Of a DNA stretch of 64,000 nt, positions 1,669-59,673 are shown piece after piece (the stretch's first letter is position 1; each line of letters begins with the position of its first letter). This DNA comes from Bacteroidales bacterium (GTDB taxonomy: Bacteria; Bacteroidota; Bacteroidia; Bacteroidales; FEN-979). The stretch lies in the NCBI GenBank assembly GCA_030681475.1, contig JAUXWT010000049.1:7991-71990 (forward strand), written 5' to 3'. The position numbers and the translations under genes were made by a program. A model generated the notes under the pieces. That model was given only the letters and a program-made list of their open reading frames with translations, was not told where the DNA came from and made no database searches.

Positions 1669-1676
1669 TAATTTTG
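1669..1676 (+). promoter_or_regulatory. Bacteroidota-type -7 box TAATTTTG
   Basis: Exact match to TAnnTTTG, 55 nt upstream of the ATG at 1731. Confidence 0.45.
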
Positions 1677-1730
1677 GGTGCGACAAGTTAAATTAACCTT
1701 ATCTGTTTCGCTCTGCCAGTATTCACAGCA

Positions 1731-2600
1731 ATGTCAAAAATTGCCCATATCATATATATTTCAGTGTTGACGATCATCGTCATTGTTGTGGTTATTGCGG
1801 TTACCCGCATCGGATTATCATACTACACGGTTGGAATTGAAGAGCGGTTCTTTCATCCTGACCATATAAAATTGAAACCCAGCGGGACCTGGGGCCATGG
1901 CATGGGCATCATCGGATCATTGTTTATGATAACCGGTGTTTCCATCTATATGGCAAGGAAAAGATTCAGGATATTCAGCCGGGTAGGCATCCTGAAACAC
2001 TGGCTGGAGTTTCACATTTTCCTGTGTTCGATGGGGCCGATCCTGGTGCTTTTTCACACCTCTTTTAAATTTGGCGGGTTGGTTGCCATCAGTTTCTGGA
2101 GCATGGTGGCGGTTTTCGTGAGCGGTATCATCGGGAGGTTCATCTATATCCAGATCCCGAGAACAATAGAAGGAAGGGAATTGAGTTTAAATGAAGTTAG
2201 GGAAATGAAGAGTGATATCGGTGACCATATCCGGAATCTTGTTTCCCTGAATGATGAAAGCTACAACATTATTGTTGATTCAACCAGGAAGAGGGTTGAA
2301 CGAAGTCATAAAAATTTCCTTGTTCGCTATATCAGGAAGTACAGCGATGACAGGAAAACTATCCGCAACGTAAAAACGGTCCTCAGGCAAAACAAAATTA
2401 CCAAATCGCAGCATAAACAAGTTCTGGCCCTGGTGAAGAGTGATATTTCACTGAACAGAAGGATTGAAAGACTTGTGACCATGCAAAATTTATTCAAATA
2501 CTGGCATGTCGCACATCTGCCGTTTGCACTTGTGATGCTGATCATCATGATCATTCACATTGCTGTAACCATCATTTTTGGTTACCGCTGGATATTTTGA
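1731..2600 (+). CDS. Polytopic membrane protein with His residues in TM helices (possible haem-b or ferric-reductase-like subunit)
   Basis: 289 aa with about 4 N-terminal TM segments, a basic soluble region and a C-terminal TM segment. His-containing helices are HWLEFHIFL, LFHTSF and WHVAHLPF. It overlaps the next gene by 4 nt. I do not recognise the family. Confidence 0.5.
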   Translation: MSKIAHIIYISVLTIIVIVVVIAVTRIGLSYYTVGIEERFFHPDHIKLKPSGTWGHGMGIIGSLFMITGVSIYMARKRFRIFSRVGILKHWLEFHIFLCSMGPILVLFHTSFKFGGLVAISFWSMVAVFVSGIIGRFIYIQIPRTIEGRELSLNEVREMKSDIGDHIRNLVSLNDESYNIIVDSTRKRVERSHKNFLVRYIRKYSDDRKTIRNVKTVLRQNKITKSQHKQVLALVKSDISLNRRIERLVTMQNLFKYWHVAHLPFALVMLIIMIIHIAVTIIFGYRWIF

Positions 2601-3934
2601 AGATGGAATTAGTATTCGAGAAAGTGGCTGTCTACACTGTGGCGATCCTCTTCTGCCTGGTGGTGGTCGTTATATATCTTCGAAAACAAAAACGGGATTC
2701 GAATAAGGTTGAGGAAAAAATCGTCAAGGCAAAGCTTGAGGGGTTGTATGAACCTGTATCACTTCATCCCGTAGTTGATGTAGGAAGTTGTATTAAAACC
2801 GGAGCCTGCATTGCTGCCTGTCCTGAAAAGGATATCCTCGGGATCAGAAATGGAAAAGCAACTACAATCAATGCTTCTCAATGCATCGGGCATGGCGCCT
2901 GTTTTCATGCATGCCCTACAGAGGCAATAACATTATGTATCGGCACCGAGAAGAGAGGTGTTGAATTACCGCATGTCGACCAAAACTTTGAGACTAACAT
3001 TCCCGGGATTTTCATTGCCGGGGAATTGGGTGGCATGGGCCTGATCAAAAATGCTGTGGAACAAGGCAAACAGGCTGTGGAAAATATTGTGAAGTCGATC
3101 CCTAAAAGCCATCAAGGCGCCTACGATCTGATTATTGTGGGAGCAGGGCCGGCAGGTATTTCTGCTTCGCTGACCGCAAAAAAACATCAACTTAAATTCA
3201 TCACCTTAGACCAGGATACCCTGGGTGGAACAGTTTTCACCTTTCCACGTTCAAAGATCGTGATGACATCGGCCATGGACTTGCCTCTTCACGGAAAAGT
3301 GAAACTCTTCGAAACGAGCAAATCAGAATTGCTTTCATTGTGGAATGACGTATTGACAAAAAACGACATTATAATAAAGGAAAATTCAAAGGTTGAGTCC
3401 ATTACTTCTGAAAATGATTATTTCAATGTGGTAACGCTAAACGGTGATAAATATACTGGTAAAAAGGTGTTGCTTTCCATCGGCCGGCGGGGAACCCCGC
3501 GAAAATTAGGCATTCCCGGAGAAACACTCGAGAAAGTAGCCTATCGGCTTCTGGAGCCTGAACTTATCAGCAATAATGAGATCATGATCGTGGGGGGTGG
3601 CGACTCCGCAATTGAATCTGCCCTACTGCTTGCGGACCAGAACAAAGTAACCATATCTTATAGAAATGAAGTATTCAACAGGATCAAACCTAAGAACAAC
3701 GAAAAGATCAACTTAGCCATGGCTTCAGGTAAGATCCAGGTTCTCTTTAATACCAACCCGATCAGAATTGAGAAAGAGTCGGTCACGCTTGCAAGAAATA
3801 CCGAAGGAGATGAATTGGGAATTAAAAATGACCTGATTTACATATTTGCCGGAGGTGAACTTCCAACACAATTTTTGCAGAAGGTCGGCCTGCACATCAC
3901 AAAAAAATTCGGAGAGGCGATTTTGAAACATTGA
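2597..3934 (+). CDS. Membrane-anchored Fe-S / FAD-NAD(P) oxidoreductase (thioredoxin-reductase-like fold)
   Basis: 445 aa with an N-terminal TM segment followed by RKQKR. Two ferredoxin-like motifs (CIKTGACIAACP, CIGHGACFHACP) are followed by dinucleotide-binding motifs IIVGAGPAG and IVGGGDSA. Confidence 0.8.
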   Translation: MKMELVFEKVAVYTVAILFCLVVVVIYLRKQKRDSNKVEEKIVKAKLEGLYEPVSLHPVVDVGSCIKTGACIAACPEKDILGIRNGKATTINASQCIGHGACFHACPTEAITLCIGTEKRGVELPHVDQNFETNIPGIFIAGELGGMGLIKNAVEQGKQAVENIVKSIPKSHQGAYDLIIVGAGPAGISASLTAKKHQLKFITLDQDTLGGTVFTFPRSKIVMTSAMDLPLHGKVKLFETSKSELLSLWNDVLTKNDIIIKENSKVESITSENDYFNVVTLNGDKYTGKKVLLSIGRRGTPRKLGIPGETLEKVAYRLLEPELISNNEIMIVGGGDSAIESALLLADQNKVTISYRNEVFNRIKPKNNEKINLAMASGKIQVLFNTNPIRIEKESVTLARNTEGDELGIKNDLIYIFAGGELPTQFLQKVGLHITKKFGEAILKH

Positions 3935-3944
3935 TAATTTATCG

Positions 3945-4034
3945 ATGCAAGCAATGGAGACAATGCAAGCAAGGAAAACAATGCAAGTAATGAAGACAAT
4001 GCAGGCAATGAAGGCAATGCAAGTAATGGCGCGA
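3945..4034 (+). repeat. Nonamer tandem array, 10 units (consensus ATGCAAGCA / ATGAAGACA, alternating to give an 18-bp super-repeat)
   Basis: Read directly from the sequence. Nine of the ten units start with an ATG in frame with the downstream cytochrome ORF. The array ends exactly at the ATG at 4035. Confidence 0.9.
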
Positions 4035-5633
4035 ATGAAATTAATAATTAGTTTACTGGCTTTATTGGTTGGTTGTCAGGGGTATGCTCAAATCTCACCA
4101 GGGGAATTATCCAAGGTTCATGCTCATCTGGAGGGGATATCAAATTGCACACAATGCCATATCCTGGGAAAAAAGGTGTCCAATAAAAAATGCCTGGATT
4201 GCCATACAGAGATCAAAGAACGGATTGAACAAAAGACTGGATATCATTCATCTTCCGACATCAGGGGTAAGGAGTGTGTTGCCTGTCACAGCGACCATCA
4301 CGGGTTAAATTTTCAGATCATCCGGTTCAACACAGAACAATTCGATCACAACTTAACAGGATTCGGTTTGTCAGGCGCACACAGCAAGAAGCAATGTTCC
4401 GACTGCCATAAAAAGGAATTCATTAAAGATCAGAAGATCAAAGCGAAAAAATTCACTTACCTTGGCTTGGGTTCAGGTTGCCTGACATGCCATGCGGATT
4501 ATCACCAGCAAACAATGTCGGCAAAATGCACTGAATGTCATGAATTTACAGCCTTCAAACCTGCCTCAAAATTCAACCATGACAAAACTGAATTTAAATT
4601 AATCGGGAAACATATCCAGGTCGCATGCATTGGCTGTCATAAGACCGGAACTAAAAACGGACAAAGCTTCCAGGAATTCAAGGACATCAAATTCGATAAC
4701 TGCACAAGCTGCCATCAGGATGTACACAACAACAAGTTTGGACAGAATTGCACACAATGTCATACAGAACAGTCATTCGGGTACATCAAAGGCGTCCGGA
4801 ATTTCGACCACGATAAAACTGATTTCAGGCTGGAGGGAAAACATCAAACAGTCGGATGCAATGATTGTCATAAAACTAAATTAACCAATGCGCTGAAATT
4901 CGGTCGGTGCACCGACTGTCATGCCGATTATCATAAGAACCAATTTGCTGCGCAGGGAGTATCACCTGATTGTTCGCAATGTCATACCGTAAATGGGTTC
5001 TCTGAAAGTACTTATACCATGGAACGGCACAACCAAGGCGTCTTTCCGTTAAGGGGAGCTCATCTGGCAACGCCATGTTTTGCCTGTCATAATAAAAATG
5101 CCGGTCAGACGCAGAAAAACTGGCAGTTCACGAAGATCGGGATGCGTTGCATCGACTGTCACCAGAATATTCACCAACAATTTATCAGCGAGAGATATTA
5201 TCCCCAATCAAGTTGCGAGAGTTGTCATGACGAGACCCGTTGGAATTCAATCAACTTTGATCACAACAAAACGAATTTTGAACTTACCGGTACACATGCC
5301 CATAAAACCTGCAGGGATTGTCATTTCAACAAAGAAAAGGAAGGAACCACACAGCAGAAATTTATGGGTACGCCAGCCACCTGCTCAGGATGCCATATCG
5401 ACATTCATTTACAACAGTTTGATAACAATGGGGTTAACGATTGTTCAAGATGTCATGACCCTGTTTCATTTAAACCTGTGACGAAATTTGATCACAGTAA
5501 AACCTTATTCCCGTTGGATGGAAAACACAAAGATCTTGCCTGTAACAAATGTCACAAGGTAATGGAGAATAATGGAATTTATTATGTACTGTACAAAATA
5601 AAGGAGTTCAAATGCGAAAATTGTCATCATTGA
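4035..5633 (+). CDS. Multihaem c-type cytochrome, 20 CXXCH, lipoprotein
   Basis: I counted 20 CXXCH motifs. The signal peptide MKLIISLLALLVGC carries a lipobox. Repeated F-[DN]-H-x-K-T-x-F-x-L-x-G-x-H...CxxCH modules resemble c3/c7-type polymers. The ORF-track start at 3945 lies inside the repeat array, so 4035 is preferred. Confidence 0.9.
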   Translation: MKLIISLLALLVGCQGYAQISPGELSKVHAHLEGISNCTQCHILGKKVSNKKCLDCHTEIKERIEQKTGYHSSSDIRGKECVACHSDHHGLNFQIIRFNTEQFDHNLTGFGLSGAHSKKQCSDCHKKEFIKDQKIKAKKFTYLGLGSGCLTCHADYHQQTMSAKCTECHEFTAFKPASKFNHDKTEFKLIGKHIQVACIGCHKTGTKNGQSFQEFKDIKFDNCTSCHQDVHNNKFGQNCTQCHTEQSFGYIKGVRNFDHDKTDFRLEGKHQTVGCNDCHKTKLTNALKFGRCTDCHADYHKNQFAAQGVSPDCSQCHTVNGFSESTYTMERHNQGVFPLRGAHLATPCFACHNKNAGQTQKNWQFTKIGMRCIDCHQNIHQQFISERYYPQSSCESCHDETRWNSINFDHNKTNFELTGTHAHKTCRDCHFNKEKEGTTQQKFMGTPATCSGCHIDIHLQQFDNNGVNDCSRCHDPVSFKPVTKFDHSKTLFPLDGKHKDLACNKCHKVMENNGIYYVLYKIKEFKCENCHH

Positions 5634-7354
5634 TTTTGTCGTCTGTATTGTCTGTAAGTCTGATTGCACAGCCATCGCCACACGGAGCGGATTTTGCTGT
5701 TGCATGTTCGGAATGCCACAGTACCTCGGGTTGGACCATAAACATGAAAACCCTTTCGTTTAATCATGGCTCCACTCAGTTTCCGCTGATCGGGCAACAC
5801 CGGTCGGTGAACTGCAGGTTGTGCCATACTTCCCTTGAATTTGTTAAAACAGGGGCTGAATGCATTGATTGTCATACAGATATGCACAATCAGACTTTGG
5901 GGCATGACTGCGTAAGGTGCCATACTCCAAAGTCATGGGTTGTAAATAATATTACGGAGATCCATCAACGGAGTCGGTTCCCCCTTGTGGGAGCCCATGT
6001 GACTGCAGATTGCTTCGACTGTCATACAAATGCCTCGGCATCGAAGCTAAGTTTTTATCCGCTGGGGGTAGAATGTTTTGATTGCCATTTAAAAGATTAT
6101 GCAGGCACCACCAGACCGGATCACACGGCCGGAGCTTATTCGAAAAACTGTCTCGAATGTCATAATATGACCTCTGTTTCATGGTCAGGAGCTGGAATAA
6201 ATCACAATTTCTTCCCACTCACCCTGGGTCATAAAATCAATAATTGCCAGGAGTGCCATAAAACAGGCAATTTTACCGGTACATCCACTGTTTGTGTCTC
6301 CTGTCATCAGTCAAACTACAATTCAACTTCTAACCCAAACCACAACTCCATCGGTTTTTCGACAAACTGCACCGACTGCCACACGACAAACCCTGGCTGG
6401 AAACCTGCCGAATACCGGGAACATGATGCCAAATCATTTCCAATTTATTCCGGAAAACATAATGGCACATGGAGCATATGCAGCGAATGCCACACTAATC
6501 CTGCAAGCTATACACAATTCACCTGTATCGATTGCCATGACCACAACCAACCTGACATGGACAAAGAGCACGCTGAGGTTCAAGGCTACGCCTATAACAG
6601 TCCAGCGTGCTTTGCATGTCACCCGACCGGCTCAAAAGAAGGTGCCTTTAACCACATCAGTTATCCGCTTACAGGCGCACATGCGAATATCGCTGCCAAT
6701 TGCTTTACCTGCCATCAGGGAAACTACATCAACACTCCGAATACCTGCGAGGGGTGTCACTTACCGGCTTATAACTCATCAACAAATCCAAATCATGCCT
6801 CCCTAAGCATTCCGGCAACCTGCACTTCCTGTCATACCACCAATCCAAACTGGAAACCTGCCACTTTCGATATACACAACACTTTTTATGTTCTGGCCGG
6901 AGCTCATGTTGCCATAGCGAACAATTGTACCGACTGCCACCAGGGGAATTATAATTCCACGCCAAGTACCTGCGTTGGTTGTCACCAGCCGGATTATAAT
7001 CAAACAACCAATCCATCGCATGTTGCAGCACAGTTTCCGACCAGTTGTATCGATTGCCATACACAATCAGCTTGGATTCCTGCCAATTGGAATCATGACG
7101 GACAGTACTTCCCAATCTACTCGGGAAAACATAAAAATGAATGGAATACCTGTGCCGATTGCCATACTAATGGGGGGAATTATTCAGTGTTTACCTGTAT
7201 AACCGCTTGCCATCCTCAATCACAAACAGACAATGACCATCAGGGGGTAAGCGGATATTTTTATAACAGCGCTGCCTGCTATAACTGCCATCCCCAGGGG
7301 ACATCGGCAGGAAAAATGCTGGACAAGTTCAACAAGATCAATCGAAAAGAATAA
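5612..7354 (+). CDS. Multihaem c-type cytochrome, 21 CXXCH plus one CX3CH (CITACH)
   Basis: The signal peptide is MRKLSSLILSSVLSVSLIAQ. Haem motifs were counted by hand. There is an internal duplication of about 115 aa. The gene overlaps the upstream cytochrome by 22 nt. Confidence 0.9.
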   Translation: MRKLSSLILSSVLSVSLIAQPSPHGADFAVACSECHSTSGWTINMKTLSFNHGSTQFPLIGQHRSVNCRLCHTSLEFVKTGAECIDCHTDMHNQTLGHDCVRCHTPKSWVVNNITEIHQRSRFPLVGAHVTADCFDCHTNASASKLSFYPLGVECFDCHLKDYAGTTRPDHTAGAYSKNCLECHNMTSVSWSGAGINHNFFPLTLGHKINNCQECHKTGNFTGTSTVCVSCHQSNYNSTSNPNHNSIGFSTNCTDCHTTNPGWKPAEYREHDAKSFPIYSGKHNGTWSICSECHTNPASYTQFTCIDCHDHNQPDMDKEHAEVQGYAYNSPACFACHPTGSKEGAFNHISYPLTGAHANIAANCFTCHQGNYINTPNTCEGCHLPAYNSSTNPNHASLSIPATCTSCHTTNPNWKPATFDIHNTFYVLAGAHVAIANNCTDCHQGNYNSTPSTCVGCHQPDYNQTTNPSHVAAQFPTSCIDCHTQSAWIPANWNHDGQYFPIYSGKHKNEWNTCADCHTNGGNYSVFTCITACHPQSQTDNDHQGVSGYFYNSAACYNCHPQGTSAGKMLDKFNKINRKE

Positions 7355-7364
7355 AACTATTTCC

Positions 7365-9002
7365 ATGAAACAATTACTTCCGGCGATACTGTTATTTTTT
7401 TCCTTGTCCTCCTTGACAGGTCAAACCCTTTATGAAACCAAAGAAGGCAAGGTTTCATATGTAACCACACAGACCGTTTACGTTAAATTCCAATCCACTG
7501 AAAATATCGCCCCGGGGGATACGCTGTTTTCGAACCAGGATGGAACCCTGATTCCGTTACTTACAGTAAGGGAAAAATCATCTATTTCCTGTGTTTGCTT
7601 GGTGATTTCTGAAAAAAAAATATCTGTCGGAGATCAGGTTTTTTCAAAACAAAAACCAGTTCAGATACCCAAAACCGGGGATAAAAAAACAGTTCCGGAG
7701 TTACCGCCGCTAACCTCTGACCGCGATTCTGTAATTGTCAGGCAGGAGCAACCATCCAAACGGTTGCAGGTGGTTACAGGAAATATTTCTGTTGCTTCTT
7801 ATCTGAATTTTTCAAGTGTAAGCAAGAGTACGCAACGGATGAAATATAATTTCGCGATGGCAGTGGAGAATATAGGTAACTCAAGGTTATCTGCTGAAAC
7901 ATACATATCCTTCGCTCATAAATTGGGTGAATGGAATACGGTTCAACATGACATCTTCAATGGATTAAAAATCTACAGTCTATCGCTTAACTATATGTTC
8001 AATAAACACAATAAAATTTTGTTAGGCAGAAAAATCAACCCCCGGATCTCCAATGTCGGAGCAATAGATGGACTCCAGTATGAAACTAAAGCGGGTGCAT
8101 TTTCCGTTGGGTTGCTGGTGGGCTCCAGACCCGATTACAGGAACTACAGTTTCAACGCAAACCTGCTTCAGTTTGGCGGGTATGTCGGGCACGACCATAC
8201 CGGAAAAAATGGAAATATGCAAACAACGCTGGCTTTTTTTGAACAAAAGAATAACGGCATCACCGACCGCAGGTTTGCCTATCTGCAGCACACCAATCCA
8301 CTCGTTCGTAATTTGTACTTTTTCGGTTCACTCGAGGTGGATCTTTATAAAAAAACCATGAACCACCCGGATACGGCCGTTAGTAAAGACACAACATACA
8401 ATAAGGACTACTCACCTGCCCTATCCAACCTGTATTTATCGCTGAGATACAGACCGGTCAGGCAATTGTCACTTTCTTTGTCGTACAGCGCCAGGCAAAA
8501 TGTAATTTACTATGAAACATATAAATCTCTGGTTGAAAGGCTGCTTGAGGAGGCAACCGTGCAGGGGTTTACCTTTCAAATCAATTATCAGCCTGTTAAA
8601 TTATTATCCATTGGCATAAATGCCGGATACCGGAATAGCAAAACGGACCCAAGGCCATCGAAAAATATTTACGGGTATGTCTCATTCAGCAGGATTCCGG
8701 GCATCAATGTGACAAGTACTGTTTCAGCTACTATTCTGGAAACCGGTTATCTGTCGGGAAACATATACAGCCTGGGTGTCTCACGTGATGTGGTGGAAGG
8801 AAAGTTGACGGCAGGCATGAACTACCGGTATGTCAGCTACCGGTTTCAGGGCGGTGAAACCCAACTGGTTCAAAACATGGGTGAGATAAATTTCACCTGG
8901 CGGATATTAAGAAAACTTTCCTGCGGTTTGTATTATGAAGGCACGTTTGACAAATCATCAACATTCAATCGCATTTACGTTAACCTAACCCAACGATTTT
9001 AA
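7365..9002 (+). CDS. Putative outer-membrane beta-barrel protein
   Basis: 545 aa with signal peptide MKQLLPAILLFFSLSSLTGQ. It shows alternating beta-strand-like sequence rich in Y/G/N/S and a C-terminal ...YVNLTQRF aromatic terminus. It starts 10 nt after the cytochrome gene. Confidence 0.6.
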   Translation: MKQLLPAILLFFSLSSLTGQTLYETKEGKVSYVTTQTVYVKFQSTENIAPGDTLFSNQDGTLIPLLTVREKSSISCVCLVISEKKISVGDQVFSKQKPVQIPKTGDKKTVPELPPLTSDRDSVIVRQEQPSKRLQVVTGNISVASYLNFSSVSKSTQRMKYNFAMAVENIGNSRLSAETYISFAHKLGEWNTVQHDIFNGLKIYSLSLNYMFNKHNKILLGRKINPRISNVGAIDGLQYETKAGAFSVGLLVGSRPDYRNYSFNANLLQFGGYVGHDHTGKNGNMQTTLAFFEQKNNGITDRRFAYLQHTNPLVRNLYFFGSLEVDLYKKTMNHPDTAVSKDTTYNKDYSPALSNLYLSLRYRPVRQLSLSLSYSARQNVIYYETYKSLVERLLEEATVQGFTFQINYQPVKLLSIGINAGYRNSKTDPRPSKNIYGYVSFSRIPGINVTSTVSATILETGYLSGNIYSLGVSRDVVEGKLTAGMNYRYVSYRFQGGETQLVQNMGEINFTWRILRKLSCGLYYEGTFDKSSTFNRIYVNLTQRF

Positions 9003-9091: not shown

Positions 9092-9817
9092 ATGAATAGA
9101 AATAAACTAACCTTTACAATAATTTTAGTACTCCTCGGAGTATTCTTTATCGTCACAATCTTTTACAAAGGCGGAGAGAAGAACAAAGTAAATTTACCTC
9201 CCGGCACACATGGTGTAATTGTGACCGAGGTTATTCAGACGACCAATTATACCTACCTTCACGGTGAAGAAAACGGCACAAAATTGTGGATAGCTGTTGA
9301 ACGTGGTGAATACAAAACAGGCGATTCGGTTTACTACAGTCAGGCATCAGAGATGAAAGATTTTGTCAGCAAAGAATTAAACCGTACATTTCCGTCCATC
9401 TTTTTTGTACAGAATCCCCACAACTCACTCGTTTCGGCCGAAAATCTGATGCAGCAACCGCTTACACCGCAAAAGGTGGCCATCAAAAGATGGACTGAAA
9501 TCGACGTTACGCCACCGGCAGGGGGGATCACAATTGCAGATCTTTATAAAAATCCGGGTAATTATGCAGGTAAAACAGTGATCATCCGGGGAGTTGTTGT
9601 AAGGTTCAATGACCAGATCATGAACAAAAACTGGGTACATATTCAGGATGGCACCGACTATTCCGATAAATTTGACCTGACCATCACGACCCTTGACAGC
9701 CTGATCGTTGGCAGTACCGCTACATTCAAAGGTATTATTGCCCTGGATAAAGATTTTGGTTCAGGATACAAGTATGATGTGATCATGGAGGAGGCCAGAA
9801 TCTCAGATATTAAATAG
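9092..9817 (+). CDS. Membrane-anchored hypothetical protein (possibly two OB-like beta domains)
   Basis: 241 aa with an N-terminal TM segment. The NWVHIQDGT...DLTITT...LDKDFGSGYKY segment recalls conserved Bacteroidota hypotheticals. Function is unknown. Confidence 0.45.
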   Translation: MNRNKLTFTIILVLLGVFFIVTIFYKGGEKNKVNLPPGTHGVIVTEVIQTTNYTYLHGEENGTKLWIAVERGEYKTGDSVYYSQASEMKDFVSKELNRTFPSIFFVQNPHNSLVSAENLMQQPLTPQKVAIKRWTEIDVTPPAGGITIADLYKNPGNYAGKTVIIRGVVVRFNDQIMNKNWVHIQDGTDYSDKFDLTITTLDSLIVGSTATFKGIIALDKDFGSGYKYDVIMEEARISDIK

Positions 9818-36895: not shown

Positions 36896-37836
36896 GCGGC
36901 AATTTCCAATTCCTGGTAGGAAAATAAATGATAAAATCCCATCTCATGAAGGCGCTTTACAACATCTTCCTTTCTCTTGCTGCTGACAAACATGGCAAAG
37001 TCACCGCCCCAGGCGCCCAGTGATTTTACTGTCCCCGGAAAAGAGGGAAGACTTCCGGAGATCGGTTCCCGTCCGAGGATAGCGCTTAGAATGGCTTCAT
37101 GTTCATTCACAAACGCTATCAGTTCGTCAGGCGAACCGGCGTTGCAAATGGCCGAAGACAAACGTGATACCTCTTCCAGATCAATGCCTGAATACTTTTT
37201 ACCCTGCAAAAATGAGGCAACCTCACTGGCGCTGTCCTGCTTGTTTCCGATGTAAGCAAACCAGGTATTTTCGCGTAAAGCTTTACCTGCCACCGCTGGC
37301 GTGATCTCCGGCTGGCCTTTAATCAACCGGTAGTATAACAAGCTTTGCCGTGTGGCACAAGCTATATCGTAGCCCGATCCCTGAGATATCATGCGAAACA
37401 GATCAAAAGCAGGAACTTCTGCCCACCTGGCAACCAGTGAACAGAGGGTGGAACTGCTTCCGAAACCCCACGCCAGGGGAAAGGTGGCTGTTACCCTGAC
37501 ATTCCATCCTGTTGAATCAGGCAGGAAATCAGGGTTCATACTTCGGGCAGCGCCAAGGAGTGTTGCAAGCCCGGTGGCTACGGGGTGATTGTCGGTGGAA
37601 ATGACCCTGAATGTTGCAGTATCAAACCTCGACCTGAACCATGTTCCGTCAGGAGCAACACTTTCCCATTCAATGATGCCCCCGGATATTTCGTGAATAA
37701 AGATATGCTGACCGAAACGCACAGGCAAAGCAAGCGCCCTGGCACCGGCCAGTACAAGGTATTCACCTGTCAGGAGAAGTTTTCCGTTGGCATGAAACTC
37801 AATGGGTAATTTCATGCAAAAAATGTTTAACGGCAT
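36892..37836 (-). CDS. GHMP-family kinase, phosphomevalonate-kinase-like
   Basis: It has ANGKLLLTGEYLVLAGARALALPV and GFGSSSTLCSLVA. An alternative ATG at 37815 (MKLPIEF...) would shorten the overlap with the upstream gene to 17 nt. Confidence 0.6.
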   Translation of the reverse strand: MPLNIFCMKLPIEFHANGKLLLTGEYLVLAGARALALPVRFGQHIFIHEISGGIIEWESVAPDGTWFRSRFDTATFRVISTDNHPVATGLATLLGAARSMNPDFLPDSTGWNVRVTATFPLAWGFGSSSTLCSLVARWAEVPAFDLFRMISQGSGYDIACATRQSLLYYRLIKGQPEITPAVAGKALRENTWFAYIGNKQDSASEVASFLQGKKYSGIDLEEVSRLSSAICNAGSPDELIAFVNEHEAILSAILGREPISGSLPSFPGTVKSLGAWGGDFAMFVSSKRKEDVVKRLHEMGFYHLFSYQELEIAA

Positions 37837-39115
37837 TAAAACTCACTGTCCGGTTATTGAAATACAATTCGGCTTCTTCACGTTGACCGTTGGTAACGTT
37901 CAACATGTTAAGGATATTCGAAAGATGCAACCTCATGTGACCCTTTTGAATCCCTGTCGTCACCAGGCTGCGAACGGCGGCAAAATTACTTGCCAGCCCA
38001 ACGGAAGCCACCACACCCATCAACTCTTTTGCTGTTGGATTGCCAAGAATCTCAAGCGACAGACGTGCCAGCGGATGCAGATTGGTAATGCCCCCAACGG
38101 TTCCCAGGGCAATTGGAATGGTAAGGCCAATGGAAAGCCTGTTACCATTTACAGAACAATGGCTTAAGGCACGATACTGGCCATCGCGGGCCGCAAAGGC
38201 ATGAGCTGCTGCTTCTGCTGCCCGGGAATCGTTGCCGGTAGCCATCAGAACTGCATCCACCCCATTCATGATCCCCTTATTGTGCGTTACTGCACGGTAA
38301 GGATCATGATGTGCGATCTGGTATGCCAGACGAAGTTTATCGGTAAAAACTTCAACCGGCAACCACCCGGAAATCGGTTTAAGATCGTCAATTTCACAGG
38401 AAGCTTCGATGGTTACCGTGCATTCGGGCGTATAGTTGCTCAGGATGGCCATGGCCACCTGAAGTTTCCTTCCTTCCTGGCCGTTATCAAGGTTAAAGAA
38501 CATATCCAGCGCCTCGGCCATATCCTCAAGGCAGGTGTTCACAAAGTTGGCGCCCATTGAATTGACAGTTTCCACCTTCAGTTCGATCTTGAACAAATTA
38601 TCGATCATTAACGTCTCATCCTGAAGCTCGAGGCTGAGGATACCTCCTCCGCGACCAACCATATTGGTGGTTATTTTTTTGAGACGCTCCAACAGAAATA
38701 ATTTAAGCTGGCGCCAATGTTCACGGATATAGGATGGGTTGCCAAACCATCGAAAATAAACGTGCCCGAGTTTAACAGTCGATAGTCCGGTTACAGTAAA
38801 ACCACCATGTTCGGCCCAAAAACGGGCGCTATGGGAAACTGCCGCGACCACAGAACTCTCTTCAATGGCAAGCGGGACATGATATACTTTCCCATTCACA
38901 CGTAAGTTCGGCGCAATTCCATACGGGGTATGAAAGCTACTGATGGTATTCTCACTCAACTCCAGAAATTGGGTGCGTTCGTTCTCATCAGCCACTAAAA
39001 AATGTTCCAGCCGGTCTTCGGCCTGGGCCGGATCAATGCAAAGACCGGCGATAAAATTTCGTTTTTCCTCTTCGGTAAGTTTGGAAAAACCGCGAATAAC
39101 ATTATTAATTATCAT
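37799..39115 (-). CDS. mvaA: Hydroxymethylglutaryl-CoA reductase
   Basis: 438 aa with EESSVVAA, NTCLEDMAE-like, DAMGANFVN-like (SMGANFVN), THNKGIMNG and GTVGG motifs. Confidence 0.9.
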   Translation of the reverse strand: MIINNVIRGFSKLTEEEKRNFIAGLCIDPAQAEDRLEHFLVADENERTQFLELSENTISSFHTPYGIAPNLRVNGKVYHVPLAIEESSVVAAVSHSARFWAEHGGFTVTGLSTVKLGHVYFRWFGNPSYIREHWRQLKLFLLERLKKITTNMVGRGGGILSLELQDETLMIDNLFKIELKVETVNSMGANFVNTCLEDMAEALDMFFNLDNGQEGRKLQVAMAILSNYTPECTVTIEASCEIDDLKPISGWLPVEVFTDKLRLAYQIAHHDPYRAVTHNKGIMNGVDAVLMATGNDSRAAEAAAHAFAARDGQYRALSHCSVNGNRLSIGLTIPIALGTVGGITNLHPLARLSLEILGNPTAKELMGVVASVGLASNFAAVRSLVTTGIQKGHMRLHLSNILNMLNVTNGQREEAELYFNNRTVSFNAVKHFLHEITH

Positions 39116-57442: not shown

Positions 57443-59500
57443 TCAGGAATTGCCAAGCCACCGTTTCCGGGCCCGCCTGACAAATGCAATGCCTAAACCC
57501 ACCACCAGCAGGACTGACCCTAACCACAAAACATTTATGTACGGGTTCAAGATGGCTTTGATGACAATATAATCAGGCTCCTTTGATACAATGGCAATAT
57601 AGGTATAATAGTCGCGACCCAAAAAGTGCCGGGTGTCGGGATTATATACCGCACCCATGCGGGGATGAACGTTGACCGATGGGTGCAGGGTGAATTCAAG
57701 ATTGAACTTTCCATTCGTTTTTGTCAGAAAATCAACCTGGTAATCTGTTGTATTCCCTTTTGGCTTGTTGTTGACATAGGTTACATAAAATCCTGTCATG
57801 GCTAAGGTGTCGTTCTTCATCAATACCAGATTTTCAGTATTGGCCTGCCGGTTTCCCAAGTCAAATTCTGACGTGTTGGTTGATATAACTTGCGAATTGG
57901 AAAATGTCAGGATTGCGCCCAGCACGAAAATCACAAAACCAATATGAGTGATGATGGCTCCCGTATTCCTTGGCTTACTTGAAAGGAATAGCATATTGTA
58001 AATGGATGACAGCAGGGCAAAGAGTGTAAAAACAACCACCAATATGAAATTCATTCGAGTAATAACCCCTGTCAATACCAACGGGATACACAGGATGATG
58101 GCGGCTAACAACGGATAAAACAATTTCTTAAGGAACTGTCCTGCATCATTGGCGCTATAAGTTAAAAACTGGCTGAACGCGATGAAACCGGCAATCAGCA
58201 ATGCGAACGGCATTTGCCAGCGGTTATAAAAGCCAACTCGGTCAACTGGTGGGGCAACATCAGTGTGAAACAGGCTGTTGAATACAGGGATTGACGTGGT
58301 GACAATGATCTGAAAGGCTGCCAGAACCACGATTATGGCTCCGATGAACATCCAGAATTCACGGGAAAGGAGTATATCCTGTTTGGCCGTGTGGAACTTT
58401 CGGAAATTGATCCCGATCATCACGACCATCATCACGAAAAACACCAACATGAAAACAAGCAGTTGCAAGGTCATGCCATTGTCTCCGAAAGAATGGGCGG
58501 AAGAATCCCCTAAAACACCGCTCCTGGTGAGGAAACTGGCATATAATATCAGAACATACGACAGCGTGATAAGGATATAAGCTCCAAGCAAAGCAAAATT
58601 CTGCCGTCTGGTTATCAGCATAAAATGCAGTCCTGCCACCAGGGTCATCCAGGGAACAAGCGACGAATTTTCGACCGGATCCCATGACCAGAAACCACCG
58701 AAGGTCAGCGAAACATAGGCCCATGCTCCTCCCAGGAGTATTCCCGCCCCGAGCATCAGTAAGGAAATCAATGTCCAGGGCAGCGCCCTGTTGATCCATG
58801 TATGGTAGTCCTTTTTTAAAAAGGAGGCTATGGCATAACTGAACGGAACCAGCGCAAGTGCATAGCCCAGAAACAATATCGGGGGATGGATCGTCATCCA
58901 GATGTTCTCAAGCAGCGGGTTTAAGCCGTTCCCGTCACCGACCGCGCTCAGGTAGTCGGGCATGGTAAATATGGTTCCCTCAATCGTTTCGACTGTATTT
59001 CTGAGCAGGTCAAATGGTGTTGCCCCGATTTTTGCACCCAAAAAGGTTACGCCGAGCAGCATGGAGGTCACAAAGGCCTGGGAAAGTGAAAATATAATCA
59101 TGACCGCGGATTCCCATTTACGTGCAAGGATCAGCAAAACAACCCCAATCAATGCCTGAAACAGCGCCCACACAAGAAAACTTCCCTCCTGCCCTGCCCA
59201 GAAACATGAAACGATATACTTCATCGGCAACTCTTTGGAAGAATATTGCCAGACATAGGAATATTCAAAATAGTGGTTGAAAATGAGGAAATATAACACG
59301 GAGGCAACCGCAACGACCGATAGTGCATGTGCGAGGTATAATCCGCGGGCGCTGATCAACAATACTCTGCGTTTATCTTTACGGTAAAAGGCCAGCAGGT
59401 AAAAAACGGAAGCCAGGATCGCTGTTCCAAATCCCAGCCAGACAAAAAATTTCCCCATCTCACCGGGGAATAAATGCTCACCTATATATTGAATGTTCAT
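57443..59500 (-). CDS. ccmF: CcmF/NrfE-family haem lyase (cytochrome c maturation)
   Basis: A polytopic protein with the Trp-rich haem-handling motif GGFWSWDPVENSSLVPW. The N-terminal region (FEYSYVWQYSS..LP..Y....FWAGQEGSFLVW) parallels E. coli CcmF. The ATG at 59500 (MNIQYIGEH) is preferred. Confidence 0.8.
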   Translation of the reverse strand: MNIQYIGEHLFPGEMGKFFVWLGFGTAILASVFYLLAFYRKDKRRVLLISARGLYLAHALSVVAVASVLYFLIFNHYFEYSYVWQYSSKELPMKYIVSCFWAGQEGSFLVWALFQALIGVVLLILARKWESAVMIIFSLSQAFVTSMLLGVTFLGAKIGATPFDLLRNTVETIEGTIFTMPDYLSAVGDGNGLNPLLENIWMTIHPPILFLGYALALVPFSYAIASFLKKDYHTWINRALPWTLISLLMLGAGILLGGAWAYVSLTFGGFWSWDPVENSSLVPWMTLVAGLHFMLITRRQNFALLGAYILITLSYVLILYASFLTRSGVLGDSSAHSFGDNGMTLQLLVFMLVFFVMMVVMIGINFRKFHTAKQDILLSREFWMFIGAIIVVLAAFQIIVTTSIPVFNSLFHTDVAPPVDRVGFYNRWQMPFALLIAGFIAFSQFLTYSANDAGQFLKKLFYPLLAAIILCIPLVLTGVITRMNFILVVVFTLFALLSSIYNMLFLSSKPRNTGAIITHIGFVIFVLGAILTFSNSQVISTNTSEFDLGNRQANTENLVLMKNDTLAMTGFYVTYVNNKPKGNTTDYQVDFLTKTNGKFNLEFTLHPSVNVHPRMGAVYNPDTRHFLGRDYYTYIAIVSKEPDYIVIKAILNPYINVLWLGSVLLVVGLGIAFVRRARKRWLGNS

Positions 59501-59521
59501 GATTGAATTTTTATTTGCCGG

Positions 59522-59652: not shown

Positions 59653-59673
59653 CATTTCCAAATCTTTTCCCGG

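What the first reader, a model, noticed from the sequence alone, without database searches (positions are those of the whole stretch)
1669..9002. Five-gene multihaem cytochrome cluster spanning inner to outer membrane (candidate porin-cytochrome electron conduit)
Seen: one co-directional, tightly packed block sits behind a TAATTTTG -7 box at 1669, with a 4-nt overlap at 2597-2600, a 22-nt overlap at 5612-5633 and 10-nt gaps. (i) The first gene encodes a polytopic membrane protein with His residues inside predicted TM helices (HWLEFHIFL, LFHTSF, WHVAHLPF). (ii) The second encodes an N-terminally anchored Fe-S flavoprotein whose basic stretch after the TM segment suggests a cytoplasmic catalytic domain. 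(iii) The third encodes a lipoprotein with 20 CXXCH. (iv) The fourth encodes a secreted protein with 21 CXXCH plus one CX3CH. (v) The fifth encodes a 545-aa signal-peptide protein ending in ...NLTQRF, the aromatic terminus typical of outer-membrane beta-barrels. Known: the MtrCAB, PioAB and Pcc systems of Proteobacteria combine periplasmic and lipoprotein multihaem cytochromes with a porin to carry electrons across the outer membrane. Inference: this may be an analogous conduit in a Bacteroidota lineage, fed by NAD(P)H or the membrane pool through the flavoprotein and the His-rich subunit. None of the five proteins looks to me like an Mtr or Pcc orthologue, so this composition may be undescribed.
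Basis: partly seen in the sequence, partly recalled or inferred. Interest (0 to 1): 0.8.

Follow-up and report, generated by a model that had tools for sequence, protein, structure and literature searches.

The report
NAD(P)H-fed porin-cytochrome electron conduit
This gene cluster in an uncultured Bacteroidales bacterium probably builds a haem "wire" from the cytoplasm to the cell surface. It is a variant of the untested "PCC3" conduits that carries its own NAD(P)H-type flavoprotein, which suggests fermenters could shed electrons to minerals or humics without using quinones.

Summary
Window 1731-9002 encodes five co-directional, tightly packed genes:
- a 5-TM membrane protein (g1);
- a membrane-anchored Fe-S flavoprotein (g2);
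- a 20-haem cytochrome (g3);
- a 21(+1)-haem cytochrome (g4);
- a 545-aa outer-membrane protein (g5), modelled as a ~22-strand barrel.

The set is a conserved unit. All 52 Bacteroidota genome loci with enough flank keep g1-g2-g3-g4-g5. Distant relatives in Acidobacteriota- and Krumholzibacteriota-labelled MAGs keep the same five genes, reordered as g1-g3-g4-g5-g2.

It is not wholly undescribed. Four components match the bioinformatically proposed, functionally unverified "PCC3" conduit (He et al. 2017). The match includes the exact inner-membrane-protein signature: WX3HX13H on TM3 and TM5, and SGXXG on TM4. A Lentimicrobium "61 + 20 haem" cluster reported in 2026 appears to be the same family.

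What I did not find in the literature is the conserved cytoplasmic NAD(P)H-type Fe-S flavoprotein.

Best reading: NAD(P)H → FAD → Fe-S → two haems b → a fixed-length periplasmic 20-haem wire → a variable 13-73-haem wire through or at the barrel → extracellular acceptor.

Everything is in silico. A cultured host, Emticicia oligotrophica, carries the cluster on a plasmid, so the model is testable.

The parts
1669..1676 (+). Possible Bacteroidota-type -7 promoter box (TAATTTTG) in the 93-nt gap upstream of g1
   Evidence: The sequence is present. The motif as a whole is not enriched in the window (56 found, 49 expected), so position is the only support.
1731..2600 (+). g1: 289-aa inner-membrane protein with five TM helices. 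Candidate di-haem b transmembrane electron carrier of the PCC3-type 'IMP' kind.
   Evidence: - The motifs are W91-x3-H95-x13-H109 on TM3, S131-G-x-x-G135 on TM4 and W258-x3-H262-x13-H276 on TM5.
- H95, H109, H262 and H276 are 4 of only 10 invariant columns among relatives at 27-49% identity.
- The model shows helices H3-32, H53-78, H86-113, H117-141 and H225-286.
- Relatives weakly hit DUF4405, Ferric_reduct, Ni_hydr_CYTB and PepSY_TM.
- The basic loops 76-90 and 143-253 imply an N-in, C-out topology (read from the sequence).
2603..3934 (+). g2: N-terminally anchored cytoplasmic flavoprotein with two Fe-S clusters and a thioredoxin-reductase-like/YpdA-like FAD + NAD(P)H part. ORF finders extend it to TTG 2597.
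   Evidence: - Pfam gives Fer4_10/Fer4_7 at residues 58-113 and Pyr_redox_3 at 179-434 with E 1.5e-39.
- The best PDB relatives are YpdA/Bdr-type and TrxR-like enzymes.
- GxGxxG (IVGAGPAG) and GGGDSA motifs are conserved.
- Fe-S motif 2 is C-x2-H-x2-C-x3-CP in every lineage.
- There is no Cys outside the TM and Fe-S parts, so it is not a disulfide reductase.
- There is no twin-arginine signal, and the residues after the TM are positively charged.
3945..4028 (+). 18-nt tandem repeat (4.7 copies of ATGCAAGCAATGAAGACA) between g2 and the probable true start of g3, in frame with g3
   Evidence: It is not conserved in orthologues, whose N-termini are short.
4026..5633 (+). g3: secreted 20-haem c-type cytochrome made of c7-like triheme repeats. 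The family has a fixed length. Proposed periplasm-spanning wire that docks on g1.
   Evidence: - It has 20 CXXCH and 44 His, at 28 aa per haem, and is K-rich.
- It hits the Cytochrome_C7 and c3 families.
- 86 of 92 complete orthologues have exactly 20 CXXCH.
- Its N-terminal part is homologous (E 2e-12) to the ~260-aa cytochromes that follow distant g1 relatives on plasmids.
5612..7354 (+). g4: secreted cytochrome with 21 CXXCH + 1 CX3CH. The family has variable length. Proposed barrel-associated or extracellular wire.
   Evidence: - Motif counts are.
- Orthologues carry 13-73 CXXCH in 580-1832 aa and always abut the barrel gene.
- It is rich in T, S, N, A and G and poor in K and E, as described for PCC3 'extracellular' cytochromes (PMC5566968).
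- It has no lipobox, and no Pfam domain other than cytochrome families was detected.
7365..9002 (+). g5: outer-membrane protein. It has a signal peptide, a small beta domain (residues ~26-94), a disordered linker (97-130) and a ~22-strand beta-barrel (136-545) ending in Phe.
   Evidence: - The AlphaFold2 model has mean pLDDT 75.6.
- Foldseek against the PDB finds only generic large barrels: FimD, TonB-dependent receptors, and MtrB at rank 19, with TM-scores of at most 0.43.
- There are no Pfam, NCBIfam or PDB sequence hits.
- It is homologous over its full length to the barrels of the non-Bacteroidota clusters (hhalign probability 100%, E 7e-41).
9092..9817 (+). g6: 241-aa membrane-anchored protein with a weak GW/SH3-like signal. 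Frequent accessory gene of the Bacteroidota clusters; role unknown.
   Evidence: - It is present in 28 of 52 informative Bacteroidota loci: 18 just downstream of g5 and 10 divergent upstream of g1.
- It is absent from 16 of 16 non-Bacteroidota loci.
- It is present after g5 on the Emticicia plasmid, annotated there as a GW domain protein.

Best explanation
The cluster encodes a complete electron path from the cytoplasm to the cell surface. It has the PCC3 architecture plus a dedicated cytoplasmic input enzyme.

Proposed path:
1. g2 sits on the cytoplasmic face, held by its N-terminal helix. It oxidises NAD(P)H at its FAD and passes electrons through its two Fe-S clusters. These lie next to the membrane anchor, and one has a conserved His ligand.
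2. g1 carries the electrons across the inner membrane on two stacked b haems. One is held by H95/H262 near the cytoplasm, the other by H109/H276 near the periplasm. This is the arrangement used by NADPH oxidases and ferric reductases.
3. g3, a 20-haem bis-His wire of invariant length, docks on g1 through its conserved N-terminal module and bridges the periplasm.
4. g4, a haem wire whose length varies between species from 13 to 73 haems, is held in or at the ~22-strand barrel g5. It delivers electrons to insoluble or macromolecular acceptors such as Fe(III)/Mn(IV) minerals, humic substances or partner cells.

Because the quinone pool is bypassed and negative charge leaves the cell, the path would not build proton-motive force. 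Its benefit would be re-oxidation of NAD(P)H, letting fermentative Bacteroidales make more oxidised products and more ATP by substrate-level phosphorylation.

Shown here:
- gene content, motifs and domain families;
- the predicted barrel;
- conservation of the five genes as a unit across phyla.

Inferred:
- cofactor occupancy;
- every protein-protein contact;
- the location of g4;
- the direction of electron flow;
- independence from quinones;
- the physiological role.
For: **Conserved unit**
- 341 species genomes encode a g5 relative.
- In 52 of 52 loci with at least 9 kb upstream of g5, g1-g2-g3-g4 are all present in the same order and strand.
- Distant g1 relatives (33-46% identity, contig GC 0.31-0.75) are followed by g3, g4 and g2 homologues in 16 of 16 loci with at least 8 kb of downstream sequence. 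A barrel is detected by tblastn in 8 of these.
- The barrels are homologous (hhalign E 7e-41).
- The same five genes lie tightly packed in MAGs labelled Thermoanaerobaculia, Krumholzibacteriota and Spirochaetales.
- They are also on a plasmid of cultured Emticicia oligotrophica, directly after ccsA.
- Survival of the set through a gene-order change argues for functional coupling of all five.

**g1 as a di-haem carrier**
- The four His in two H-x13-H pairs on parallel helices TM3 and TM5 are invariant across the family.
- Relatives hit di-haem cytochrome b families.
- He et al. reached the same inference for PCC3/PCC4 membrane proteins (PMC5566968).

**Cytoplasmic NAD(P)H input**
- g2 has both dinucleotide-binding motifs and Fe-S motifs, a positive-inside anchor and no Tat signal.
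- Independently, more distant g1 relatives on proteobacterial and Cytophagales plasmids are paired with an unrelated NAD(P)H flavoprotein type (FAD_binding_6 + NAD_binding_1 + 2Fe-2S) plus a small cytochrome homologous to the N-terminus of g3.
- So two different flavoprotein families have been recruited to this membrane protein and cytochrome.

**Wires**
- g3 is fixed at 20 haems while g4 ranges from 13 to 73.
- There are enough extra His for bis-His ligation: 44 His for 20 haems in g3, and 46 His for 22 in g4.
- Both have about 28 aa per haem.

**Barrel**
- About 22 strands with a C-terminal Phe.
- By the standard n/S barrel geometry formula (my calculation, not measured on the model), the backbone diameter would be about 40 Å.

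**Maturation**
- CcmF-like and DsbD-like genes are in the same window.
Against: - There is no experimental datum for this cluster or for any PCC3.
- In Sideroxydans ES-1 the PCC3 genes were down-regulated on Fe(II) and their function is called unverified (PMC8788666; bioRxiv 10.1101/2025.02.27.639646).
- The g1 model is poor (pLDDT 63) and gave no structural match. Haem binding therefore rests on motifs alone.
- I could not run complex prediction, so no contact (g2-g1, g1-g3, g3/g4-g5) has been tested.
- g4 has no recognisable surface-export signal, and the N-terminal domain of g5 could be a plug. Extracellular exposure is therefore unproven.
- A quinone site in g1 cannot be excluded.
- The nucleotide specificity of g2 is unknown.
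- Emticicia oligotrophica, which carries the cluster, is to my knowledge an aerobe (not checked here). That does not fit a purely fermentative-sink role.
Confidence: 0.55

Rival explanations
1. Same conduit, but quinone-coupled, as originally proposed for PCC3. g1 would be a quinol dehydrogenase or quinone reductase cytochrome b. g2 would be an accessory enzyme, for example for redox sensing, repair or an alternative input.
For: - He et al. 2017 proposed quinone coupling for the same membrane-protein signature.
- As described in the literature, proteobacterial PCC3 clusters have four genes and no flavoprotein. The membrane protein can therefore apparently work without g2.
Against: - g2 is retained in 52 of 52 and 16 of 16 informative loci, and through a gene-order rearrangement.
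- A second, unrelated NAD(P)H flavoprotein type is paired with distant g1 relatives.
- g1 has a long conserved basic cytoplasmic insert (143-253) suited to docking a partner.
- No quinone-site motif was identified, though none was specifically searched for.
Confidence: 0.15
2. The conduit runs inward. It would take up electrons from Fe(II), Fe(0), reduced humics, cathodes or partner cells, as hypothesised for PCC3 in iron oxidisers, and end in NAD(P)+ reduction by g2.
For: - PCC3 was first found in neutrophilic Fe(II) oxidisers and was modelled as an uptake path.
- Mtr-type conduits are reversible (PMC10734462).
Against: - Pushing electrons from Fe(II)-level donors to NAD(P)+ across the membrane, against the membrane potential, is doubly uphill. 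This is established bioenergetics and my inference here.
- The hosts are mostly Bacteroidales and Lentimicrobiaceae. To my knowledge, and per PMC13013709 for Lentimicrobiaceae, these are organotrophic fermenters.
- His-rich, Met-poor cytochromes suggest low-potential bis-His haems.
- PCC3 genes were down-regulated on Fe(II) in ES-1.
Confidence: 0.12
3. Not extracellular. The system would be a periplasmic electron sink or detoxifying reductase for soluble metals, metalloids or oxidants, supplied by NAD(P)H. g5 would act as an ordinary channel for the substrate, and the large cytochromes as a periplasmic capacitor.
For: - The simpler flavoprotein-membrane protein-small cytochrome modules lie in copper and heavy-metal resistance islands, without a barrel.
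- g4 lacks a known surface-export signal.
- The weak best NCBIfam matches include the selenite/tellurite Ext proteins.
Against: - A 73-haem linear cytochrome would be longer than the periplasm is wide (an inference from about 1 nm per haem).
- g4 length varies freely while g3 is fixed.
- The barrel gene is invariably fused in operon position to g4 with a 10-nt gap, and it co-evolves across phyla.
- All Ext, DmsE and Hmc scores are far below family cut-offs.
Confidence: 0.1

Closest known systems
PCC3 putative porin-cytochrome c complex (He et al. 2017, Front Microbiol 8:1584; Slit_0867-0870 of Sideroxydans lithotrophicus ES-1, Leptothrix cholodnii SP-6). Proposed bioinformatically and functionally unverified.
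   Same: - A ~300-aa inner-membrane protein with five TM helices, WX3HX13H on TM3 and TM5, and SGXXG on TM4.
- A 'periplasmic' cytochrome of about 21 haems at about 27 aa per haem, built of repeats.
- An 'extracellular' cytochrome with very variable haem number, rich in small residues.
- An adjacent barrel (22 predicted strands in L. cholodnii).
   Different: - The present family always carries a membrane-anchored Fe-S flavoprotein gene. None of the four PCC3 papers I read mentions one.
- The periplasmic cytochrome has 20 haems, not 21-27.
- Hosts are Bacteroidota, Krumholzibacteriota and Acidobacteriota rather than Proteobacteria.
- Direct sequence homology to the founding proteobacterial genes could not be tested here.
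MtrCAB / MtoAB / PioAB porin-cytochrome complexes (structure 6R2Q)
   Same: The logic is the same: a multihaem cytochrome insulated inside an outer-membrane barrel hands electrons to a surface cytochrome. The cytochrome gene is directly adjacent to the barrel gene.
   Different: - No family membership. DmsE/MtrA family scores are 45 and 35 bits against a cut-off of 192.
- No Pfam family at all matched g5, and the Foldseek TM-score to MtrB is only 0.36.
- The barrel has 22 strands rather than 26.
- The cytochromes have 20 and 13-73 haems rather than 10.
- The inner-membrane input is a di-haem b protein plus a flavoprotein, not the quinol dehydrogenase CymA.
NADPH oxidase / ferric reductase (FRD) superfamily (NOX, Fre, and the bacterial MsrQ relatives)
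   Same: Two b haems are held by two His pairs, 13 residues apart, on the third and fifth helices. They carry electrons from cytoplasmic NAD(P)H/FAD across a membrane. The process is electrogenic and not energy-conserving.
   Different: - g1 has five helices rather than six, and itself does not reach any Pfam FRD threshold. Only 3 of 37 relatives match weakly.
- The dehydrogenase is a separate polypeptide of the thioredoxin-reductase fold with two Fe-S clusters, not a fused FNR-type domain.
- The acceptor is a multihaem cytochrome chain, not O2 or Fe(III) chelates.
Flavin-based EET of Listeria monocytogenes (Ndh2-DMK-EetA/B-PplA), cited from my own knowledge
   Same: A dedicated NADH-oxidising input lets a fermentative organism dump electrons on extracellular acceptors.
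   Different: That system runs through a special quinone and a flavinylated lipoprotein in a monoderm. There are no cytochromes and no outer membrane.
Lentimicrobium 'giant PCC cluster' (Nat Commun 2026, PMC13013709) and putative novel PCCs in Bacteroidetes lake MAGs (mSphere 2019, PMC6344600)
   Same: Almost certainly the same gene family. It has two adjacent cytochromes with 61 and 20 haems next to a porin in Lentimicrobiaceae, and my Lentimicrobiaceae loci show 20 + 43-61 haems.
   Different: [quoted passage not shown] They do not mention the membrane protein motifs, the flavoprotein, the phylogenetic spread or a mechanism.

Membership tests
PCC3 (He et al. 2017) | Conserved inner-membrane protein of ~300 aa with five TM helices | tested here: met
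   g1 is 289 aa. Five long helices are predicted, and the basic loops alternate.
PCC3 (He et al. 2017) | Two WX3HX13H motifs on TM3 and TM5, and SGXXG on TM4 | tested here: met
   - W91/H95/H109, S131-G135 and W258/H262/H276 are all present.
- The His residues are invariant in relatives down to 27% identity.
- Both WX3HX13H motifs are present in 47 of 53 distant homologues scanned, and SGXXG in 52 of 53.
- He et al. note that PCC4 proteins share this motif too, so it does not distinguish PCC3 from PCC4.
PCC3 (He et al. 2017) | Periplasmic multihaem cytochrome with ~21 (21-27) haems, ~26-27 aa per haem, and internal repeats | tested here: met
   g3 has 20 CXXCH at 28 aa per haem, spaced in groups of three. 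86 of 92 orthologues have 20. This is one haem fewer than the published range. The periplasmic location itself is not testable here.
PCC3 (He et al. 2017) | Second, 'extracellular' cytochrome with a large and highly variable haem number, repeats, and enrichment in T/S/A/G | tested here: met
   g4 orthologues have 13-73 CXXCH (median 30). Composition is T 9.5, S 9.3, N 9.3, A 7.2 and G 6.2%. Extracellular location is not testable with these tools.
PCC3 (He et al. 2017) | Outer-membrane beta-barrel gene in the same cluster | tested here: met
   g5 is modelled as a ~22-strand barrel with pLDDT 75.6. The L. cholodnii PCC3 porin is predicted to have 22 strands.
PCC3 (He et al. 2017) | Sequence homology to the founding genes (Slit_0867-0870, L. 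cholodnii SP-6 cluster) | not testable with these tools
   No reference sequences could be obtained. The supplement holds only repeat tables. Named relatives found here were Acidobacteriota, Krumholzibacteriota and Bacteroidota, not Proteobacteria.
MtrCAB/MtoAB/PioAB | MtrB/PioB-family 26-strand porin | tested here: not met
   No Pfam or NCBIfam hit for g5. Foldseek places MtrB (6r2q_B) at rank 19 with TM-score 0.36. About 22 strands.
MtrCAB/MtoAB/PioAB | DmsE/MtrA-family decahaem cytochrome (TIGR03508) | tested here: not met
   Scores are 45.3 bits for g3 and 34.8 bits for g4, against a cut-off of 192.2.
Geobacter Pcc/Ext conduits | Orthology to Ext or GSU2203-type cytochromes | tested here: not met
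   ExtN scores 49 bits against a cut-off of 200, and GSU2203 scores 16.8 against 325.
Ferric reductase domain (NOX/FRD, PF01794) | Match to the FRD profile, and six TM helices with a fused or adjacent FNR-type dehydrogenase | tested here: not met
   - g1 has no PF01794 hit, and only 3 of 37 relatives match weakly (best E 1.5e-4).
- It has five helices.
- The partner g2 has the TrxR fold.
- The His-pair geometry (H-x13-H on TM3 and TM5) is shared, so it works like an FRD without being a demonstrable member.
Thioredoxin-reductase-like / YpdA (Bdr) flavoproteins | FAD and NAD(P)H Rossmann motifs of the two-dinucleotide-binding-domain fold | tested here: met
   Pyr_redox_3 E 1.5e-39. PDB 7a76 E 2e-25. 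GxGxxG and GGGDSA motifs are conserved.
Thioredoxin-reductase-like / YpdA (Bdr) flavoproteins | Equivalog-level score, or a disulfide-reductase active site | tested here: not met
   YpdA scores 152.6 bits against a cut-off of 339.9, and TrxR 84 against 343. No Cys lies outside the TM and Fe-S segments. It also has an extra Fe-S domain and a membrane anchor.

The most novel reading that the evidence does not exclude
The five genes may form a quinone-independent, NOX-like 'NAD(P)H:extracellular-acceptor oxidoreductase'. This would be one continuous cofactor chain (FAD, two Fe-S clusters, two haems b, then 20 + 13-73 haems c) from cytoplasmic NAD(P)H to the cell surface. It is conserved as a unit in Bacteroidota, Krumholzibacteriota, Acidobacteriota and others, and is mobile on a plasmid. 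It would give abundant 'fermentative' anaerobes in lakes, sediments and digesters a non-respiratory route to reduce minerals and humics. It would also imply that the membrane protein of PCC3/PCC4-type conduits in general is an electron exporter or importer for cytoplasmic flavoproteins rather than a quinol oxidase.
Probability: 0.4. Interest if true: 0.8.

Novelty: new variant of a known kind. Interest (0 to 1): 0.62.

Why it matters
Known outer-membrane electron conduits (Mtr, Pcc, Ext) all draw on the quinone pool through quinol dehydrogenases. A conduit wired directly to NAD(P)H would be a different coupling mode. It would conserve no energy, but it would be a powerful redox valve for fermenters.

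The family is large:
- more than 2,100 barrel clusters and more than 6,900 membrane-protein clusters at 90% identity;
- 341 species genomes for the Bacteroidota-type barrel alone.

It sits in lineages (Bacteroidales, Lentimicrobiaceae, Prolixibacteraceae, Krumholzibacteriota, Thermoanaerobaculia) that are common in humic lakes, sediments, aquifers and digesters. These lineages are usually scored as non-electroactive. If the cluster is active, iron and humic reduction and interspecies electron transfer budgets in those systems would need a new contributor.

It also gives the long-standing 'PCC3' hypothesis a concrete inner-membrane mechanism that can be tested. A cultured, plasmid-borne example (Emticicia oligotrophica DSM 17448) is available to test it in.

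The fixed-length and variable-length pair of haem wires is a natural experiment on how far biological haem chains can conduct.

Tried and rejected
1. **Structure of g1.** The AlphaFold2 model from 26 close homologues was poor (pLDDT 63, pTM 0.43). Foldseek against the PDB then gave only noise (best E 1.5), so I draw no structural conclusion.
2. **Sequence searches of solved structures.** g1, g3, g4, g5 and g6 returned nothing significant.
3. **Mtr, Pcc, Ext, Hmc or Nrf orthology.** Rejected on family cut-offs.
4. **Nutrient-porin or TonB-receptor identity for g5.** Rejected. There are no profile hits, and the structural matches are generic, spread over ushers, TonB-dependent receptors, porins and AlgE with TM-scores of at most 0.43.
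5. **The -7 box as evidence of a promoter.** The motif occurs at chance frequency. The sigma-70 and terminator scans were also at chance level.
6. **First metagenome scan.** I repeated it with a narrower alignment.
7. **Finding a proteobacterial PCC3 reference.**
   - Plasmid searches with g1 and g3 found only the Emticicia cluster and the three-gene flavoprotein-membrane protein-cytochrome modules.
   - The supplement of He et al. holds no sequences.
   - The third protein search returned Acidobacteriota and Krumholzibacteriota names, not Proteobacteria.
8. **Cluster look-up of ten distant g1 representatives.** It gave almost no taxonomy.
9. **Papers that turned out irrelevant.** These covered peat EET, chitin-EET, bioanode communities and the Bothnian Sea bioreactor.
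10. **Lipoprotein status of g3.** Rejected as a family feature, because the Cys is absent from many orthologues.

Full report
**1. What is in the sequence**

The window comes from an uncultured Bacteroidales bacterium. g5 and g1 are 100% identical to proteins Q8M08_06700 and Q8M08_06680 of a 'MAG: Bacteroidales bacterium' on a 168,870-nt contig. The same locus was assembled from run SRR13727517.

Five co-directional ORFs lie at 1731-2600 (g1), 2597/2603-3934 (g2), 3945/4026-5633 (g3), 5612-7354 (g4) and 7365-9002 (g5).

No other ORF in the 64 kb has two or more CXXCH.
- Pfam finds nothing above threshold in g1 or g5.
- In g2 it finds a 4Fe-4S dicluster domain plus Pyr_redox_3.
- In g3 and g4 it finds only generic c7/c3-type cytochrome families.

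Small corrections:
- Orthologues and the public gene call start g2 at ATG 2603.
- The first 84 nt of the g3 ORF are an 18-nt tandem repeat. The real start is probably 4026 or 4035.
- The TANNTTTG box at 1669 is real, but the motif occurs at chance frequency.
- The g3 lipobox is not conserved in orthologues. A signal-peptidase-I site directly before the conserved mature N-terminus QISPG is an equally good reading.

**2. The barrel**

An AlphaFold2 model of g5, built on 32 homologues, has mean pLDDT 75.6. It shows:
- a signal helix;
- a small six-strand beta domain (residues 26-94);
- a disordered linker (97-130);
- 22 long antiparallel strands from 136 to the C-terminal Phe.

Foldseek against the PDB returns only generic large barrels. 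These are the FimD and PapC ushers, TonB-dependent receptors, general porins, AlgE, and MtrB at rank 19. TM-scores are at most 0.43 and identity is 8-12%. There is no sequence hit in Pfam, NCBIfam or the PDB.

So g5 is a large barrel of its own family, not a recognisable nutrient porin. From standard barrel geometry (n = 22, S ≈ 24) I estimate a backbone diameter near 40 Å. This is a calculation, not a measurement on the model. I could not determine whether the N-terminal domain plugs the lumen.

**3. The five genes are one unit, and not only in Bacteroidota**

The g5 family has more than 2,100 clusters at 90% identity, all 'hypothetical'.

A scan of one genome per GTDB species found 341 stretches that encode a relative. 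The 80 best are MAGs labelled Bacteroidales, Lentimicrobiaceae, Prolixibacteraceae, Marinilabiliales, Salinivirgaceae, Draconibacterium and Cyclobacteriaceae. In all 52 loci with at least 9 kb upstream of g5, the genes g1, g2, g3 and g4 are present in that order on the same strand.

A profile search of 1.84 billion representative proteins found 2,964 g1 relatives. I used some of the distant ones (about 35% identical to g1) to fetch metagenome contigs with GC content from 0.31 to 0.75.
- In 45 of 59 loci with at least 600 nt downstream of the g1 relative, a g3 homologue starts within 800 nt of it.
- In 16 of 16 loci with at least 8 kb downstream there are also g4 and g2 homologues, in the order g1-g3-g4-barrel-g2.
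- tblastn detected the barrel in only 8 of those 16. For six of the loci I aligned the barrel ORF, and that alignment is homologous to g5 over its full length (hhalign probability 100%, E 7e-41).

NCBI MAGs labelled Thermoanaerobaculia, Krumholzibacteriota and Spirochaetales show the same five tightly packed genes. Retention of all five through a gene-order change and across phyla is the strongest evidence here that they work together.

A sixth gene, g6 (9092-9817), encodes a membrane-anchored protein with a weak GW/SH3-like signal. It accompanies 28 of the 52 Bacteroidota loci and none of the others.

**4. The two cytochromes behave differently**

- g3 orthologues have exactly 20 CXXCH in 86 of 92 complete copies. 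Lengths are about 530-560 aa in the copies I inspected.
- g4 orthologues range from 13 to 73 CXXCH (580 to 1,832 aa) through expansion of a repeated module. They always end about 10 nt before the barrel gene.
- g3 is lysine-rich (10%). g4 is rich in T, S, N, A and G and poor in K and E.
- Both have enough additional His for bis-His ligation of every haem.

At roughly 1 nm per haem, a figure from my knowledge of linear multihaem proteins, g3 is about the width of a periplasm. The longest g4 proteins would be far longer than a periplasm. That fits a fixed periplasmic bridge plus a variable-reach outer wire.

**5. The inner-membrane module**

Across relatives at only 27-49% identity, just ten g1 columns are invariant. 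Four of them are H95 and H109 on the third helix and H262 and H276 on the fifth. Each pair is 13 residues apart and preceded by Trp. There is also an S-G-x-x-G motif on helix 4.

The positive-inside rule places loops 76-90 and 143-253 in the cytoplasm. The two His pairs then form one haem site near each membrane face. Some relatives reach weak Pfam matches to DUF4405, Ferric_reduct, Ni_hydr_CYTB and PepSY_TM, which to my knowledge are all di-haem membrane cytochrome families. The AlphaFold model of g1 was too poor to use.

g2 has an N-terminal helix followed by a basic stretch and has no Tat motif, so its domains are cytoplasmic. In order after the anchor it has:
- an Fe-S domain;
- a thioredoxin-reductase/YpdA-like FAD + NAD(P)H part with both Rossmann motifs intact and no redox-active disulfide.

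Its second Fe-S motif is C-x2-H-x2-C-x3-CP in every lineage. The first motif is canonical outside Bacteroidales, but has Thr or Ser in place of the second Cys in Bacteroidales.

**6. An independent hint that this membrane protein serves cytoplasmic NAD(P)H flavoproteins**

More distant g1 relatives (24-27% identity) occur on plasmids of Alteromonas, Methylophaga, Qipengyuania, Acetobacter and Spirosoma. They sit between two genes:
- a large protein with FAD_binding_6 + NAD_binding_1 + 2Fe-2S domains. Domains were scanned for the Alteromonas copy only. The others are annotated as 2Fe-2S cluster-binding or FAD-binding oxidoreductases;
- a ~260-aa multihaem cytochrome that is homologous to the N-terminal part of g3 (E 2e-12 for the Alteromonas copy).

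These modules usually lie inside copper or heavy-metal resistance islands. Two unrelated flavoprotein types have thus been combined with the same membrane protein and the same cytochrome N-terminal module. I take this as support for electron flow flavoprotein → membrane protein → cytochrome, and for g3 as the direct periplasmic partner of g1.

**7. Comparison with what is known**

None of the proteins is an Mtr, Pcc/Ext, Hmc or Nrf orthologue. All NCBIfam scores are several-fold below their cut-offs.

The architecture does match 'PCC3', proposed by He et al. (2017) from genomes of iron oxidisers. PCC3 comprises:
- a porin (22 predicted strands in L. cholodnii);
- an 'extracellular' cytochrome (median 34 haems, up to 63, repeat-rich, rich in small residues);
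- a 'periplasmic' cytochrome (median 21 haems, about 26-27 aa per haem);
- a ~300-aa inner-membrane protein with five helices, SGXXG on TM4 and WX3HX13H on TM3 and TM5.

g1 carries that signature exactly.

PCC3 remains untested. Its genes were down-regulated on Fe(II) in S. lithotrophicus ES-1, and it was still described as functionally unverified in 2025. Those papers describe four genes and propose quinone coupling. None mentions a flavoprotein.

Bacteroidota versions have been glimpsed before:
- 'putative novel PCCs' in lake MAGs;

I could not obtain proteobacterial PCC3 sequences, so direct homology is untested. I therefore file the cluster as a variant of the PCC3 kind, distinguished by its conserved Fe-S flavoprotein.

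**8. Most likely mechanism, and its limits**

The proposed chain is:

NAD(P)H → FAD (g2) → two Fe-S clusters (g2) → cytoplasmic-side haem b → periplasmic-side haem b (g1) → 20 haems c (g3) → 22 haems c here, 13-73 elsewhere (g4, in or at barrel g5) → external acceptor.

Outward flow is favoured for three reasons:
- NAD(P)H is a strong reductant.
- The membrane potential assists electron exit.
- The hosts are mainly organotrophic fermenters.

The reverse reaction from Fe(II)-level donors would be uphill on both counts. This direction argument is an inference. The pathway would dissipate rather than build proton-motive force. Its likely value is therefore as a redox valve.

None of the following is shown: cofactor content, contacts, g4 location, direction of flow, or independence from quinones.

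The window also encodes CcmF-like and DsbD-like cytochrome c maturation proteins. On the Emticicia plasmid the cluster directly follows ccsA.

**9. Verdict**

Its novelty claim must be narrowed to the flavoprotein coupling and the phylogenetic breadth. The plasmid-borne copy in cultured Emticicia oligotrophica DSM 17448 makes direct tests feasible.

Noticed in passing
window 3945-4028: An 18-nt tandem repeat (4.7 copies of ATGCAAGCAATGAAGACA, each with ATG codons) lies in frame with g3. It fills the space between the g2 stop and the probable g3 start. It is not present in the orthologues inspected. It could affect translation initiation or vary in copy number.
   Followed up: partly
window 57443-59539 (-) and 59503-61764 (+): A CcmF-like cytochrome c assembly protein and a DsbD-like thiol:disulfide interchange protein lie in a divergent pair. 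The organism therefore has haem-attachment machinery within 50 kb of the cluster.
   Followed up: partly
window 9092-9817 (+): g6 is a membrane-anchored 241-aa protein with a weak GW/SH3-like signal. It is found next to the cluster in 28 of 52 Bacteroidota loci, either after g5 or divergent before g1, and on the Emticicia plasmid. It is never found in the non-Bacteroidota clusters. Its role is unknown.
   Followed up: partly
L163 7974-12693; L164 6929-10773; L165 7073-10850; L166 7672-10394; L167 2063-6154: Three- to four-gene modules occur in copper or heavy-metal resistance islands on plasmids of Alteromonas, Qipengyuania, Methylophaga, Acetobacter and Spirosoma. In Alteromonas the module lies next to a [NiFe] hydrogenase cluster. 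Each module has an FNR-type flavoprotein with 2Fe-2S, a g1-like membrane protein and a ~260-aa multihaem cytochrome, often followed by DUF1622. This looks like an undescribed NAD(P)H-to-periplasm electron export module.
   Followed up: partly
L162 8899-21483 (Emticicia oligotrophica DSM 17448 plasmid pEMTOL02, NC_018749.1): A complete cluster is preceded by a 1,028-aa ccsA gene on a 100-kb plasmid of a cultured organism. It comprises the g1 and g2 homologues, a 23-haem g3, a 40-haem g4, the barrel and g6. This suggests the system moves horizontally together with a haem-attachment gene.
   Followed up: partly
window 2597-3934, residues ~60-113 of g2; compared in L001-L162: The second Fe-S motif has a universally conserved His in place of the second Cys (C-x2-H-x2-C-x3-CP). 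The first motif has lost its second Cys (replaced by Thr or Ser) only in the Bacteroidales and Emticicia lineage. This hints at a His-ligated cluster and possibly a [3Fe-4S] cluster.
   Followed up: partly
L013 11717-15262; L060 11759-14377; L061, L068, L071: Some Bacteroidota loci carry a second g4-type giant cytochrome gene (34-45 haems) downstream of the barrel, in addition to the one upstream.
   Followed up: no
window 37799-39115 (-): An HMG-CoA reductase gene (Pfam E 2e-80) is present in this Bacteroidales genome. It is unrelated to the finding.
   Followed up: no
L170 (GCA_964615055.1, labelled Spirochaetales) versus L169 (Krumholzibacteriota): The two loci share the upstream neighbours of the cluster (HDOD/HD protein, AIRS-family protein, class I tRNA synthetase). 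The 'Spirochaetales' label of that MAG contig may therefore be wrong.
   Followed up: no
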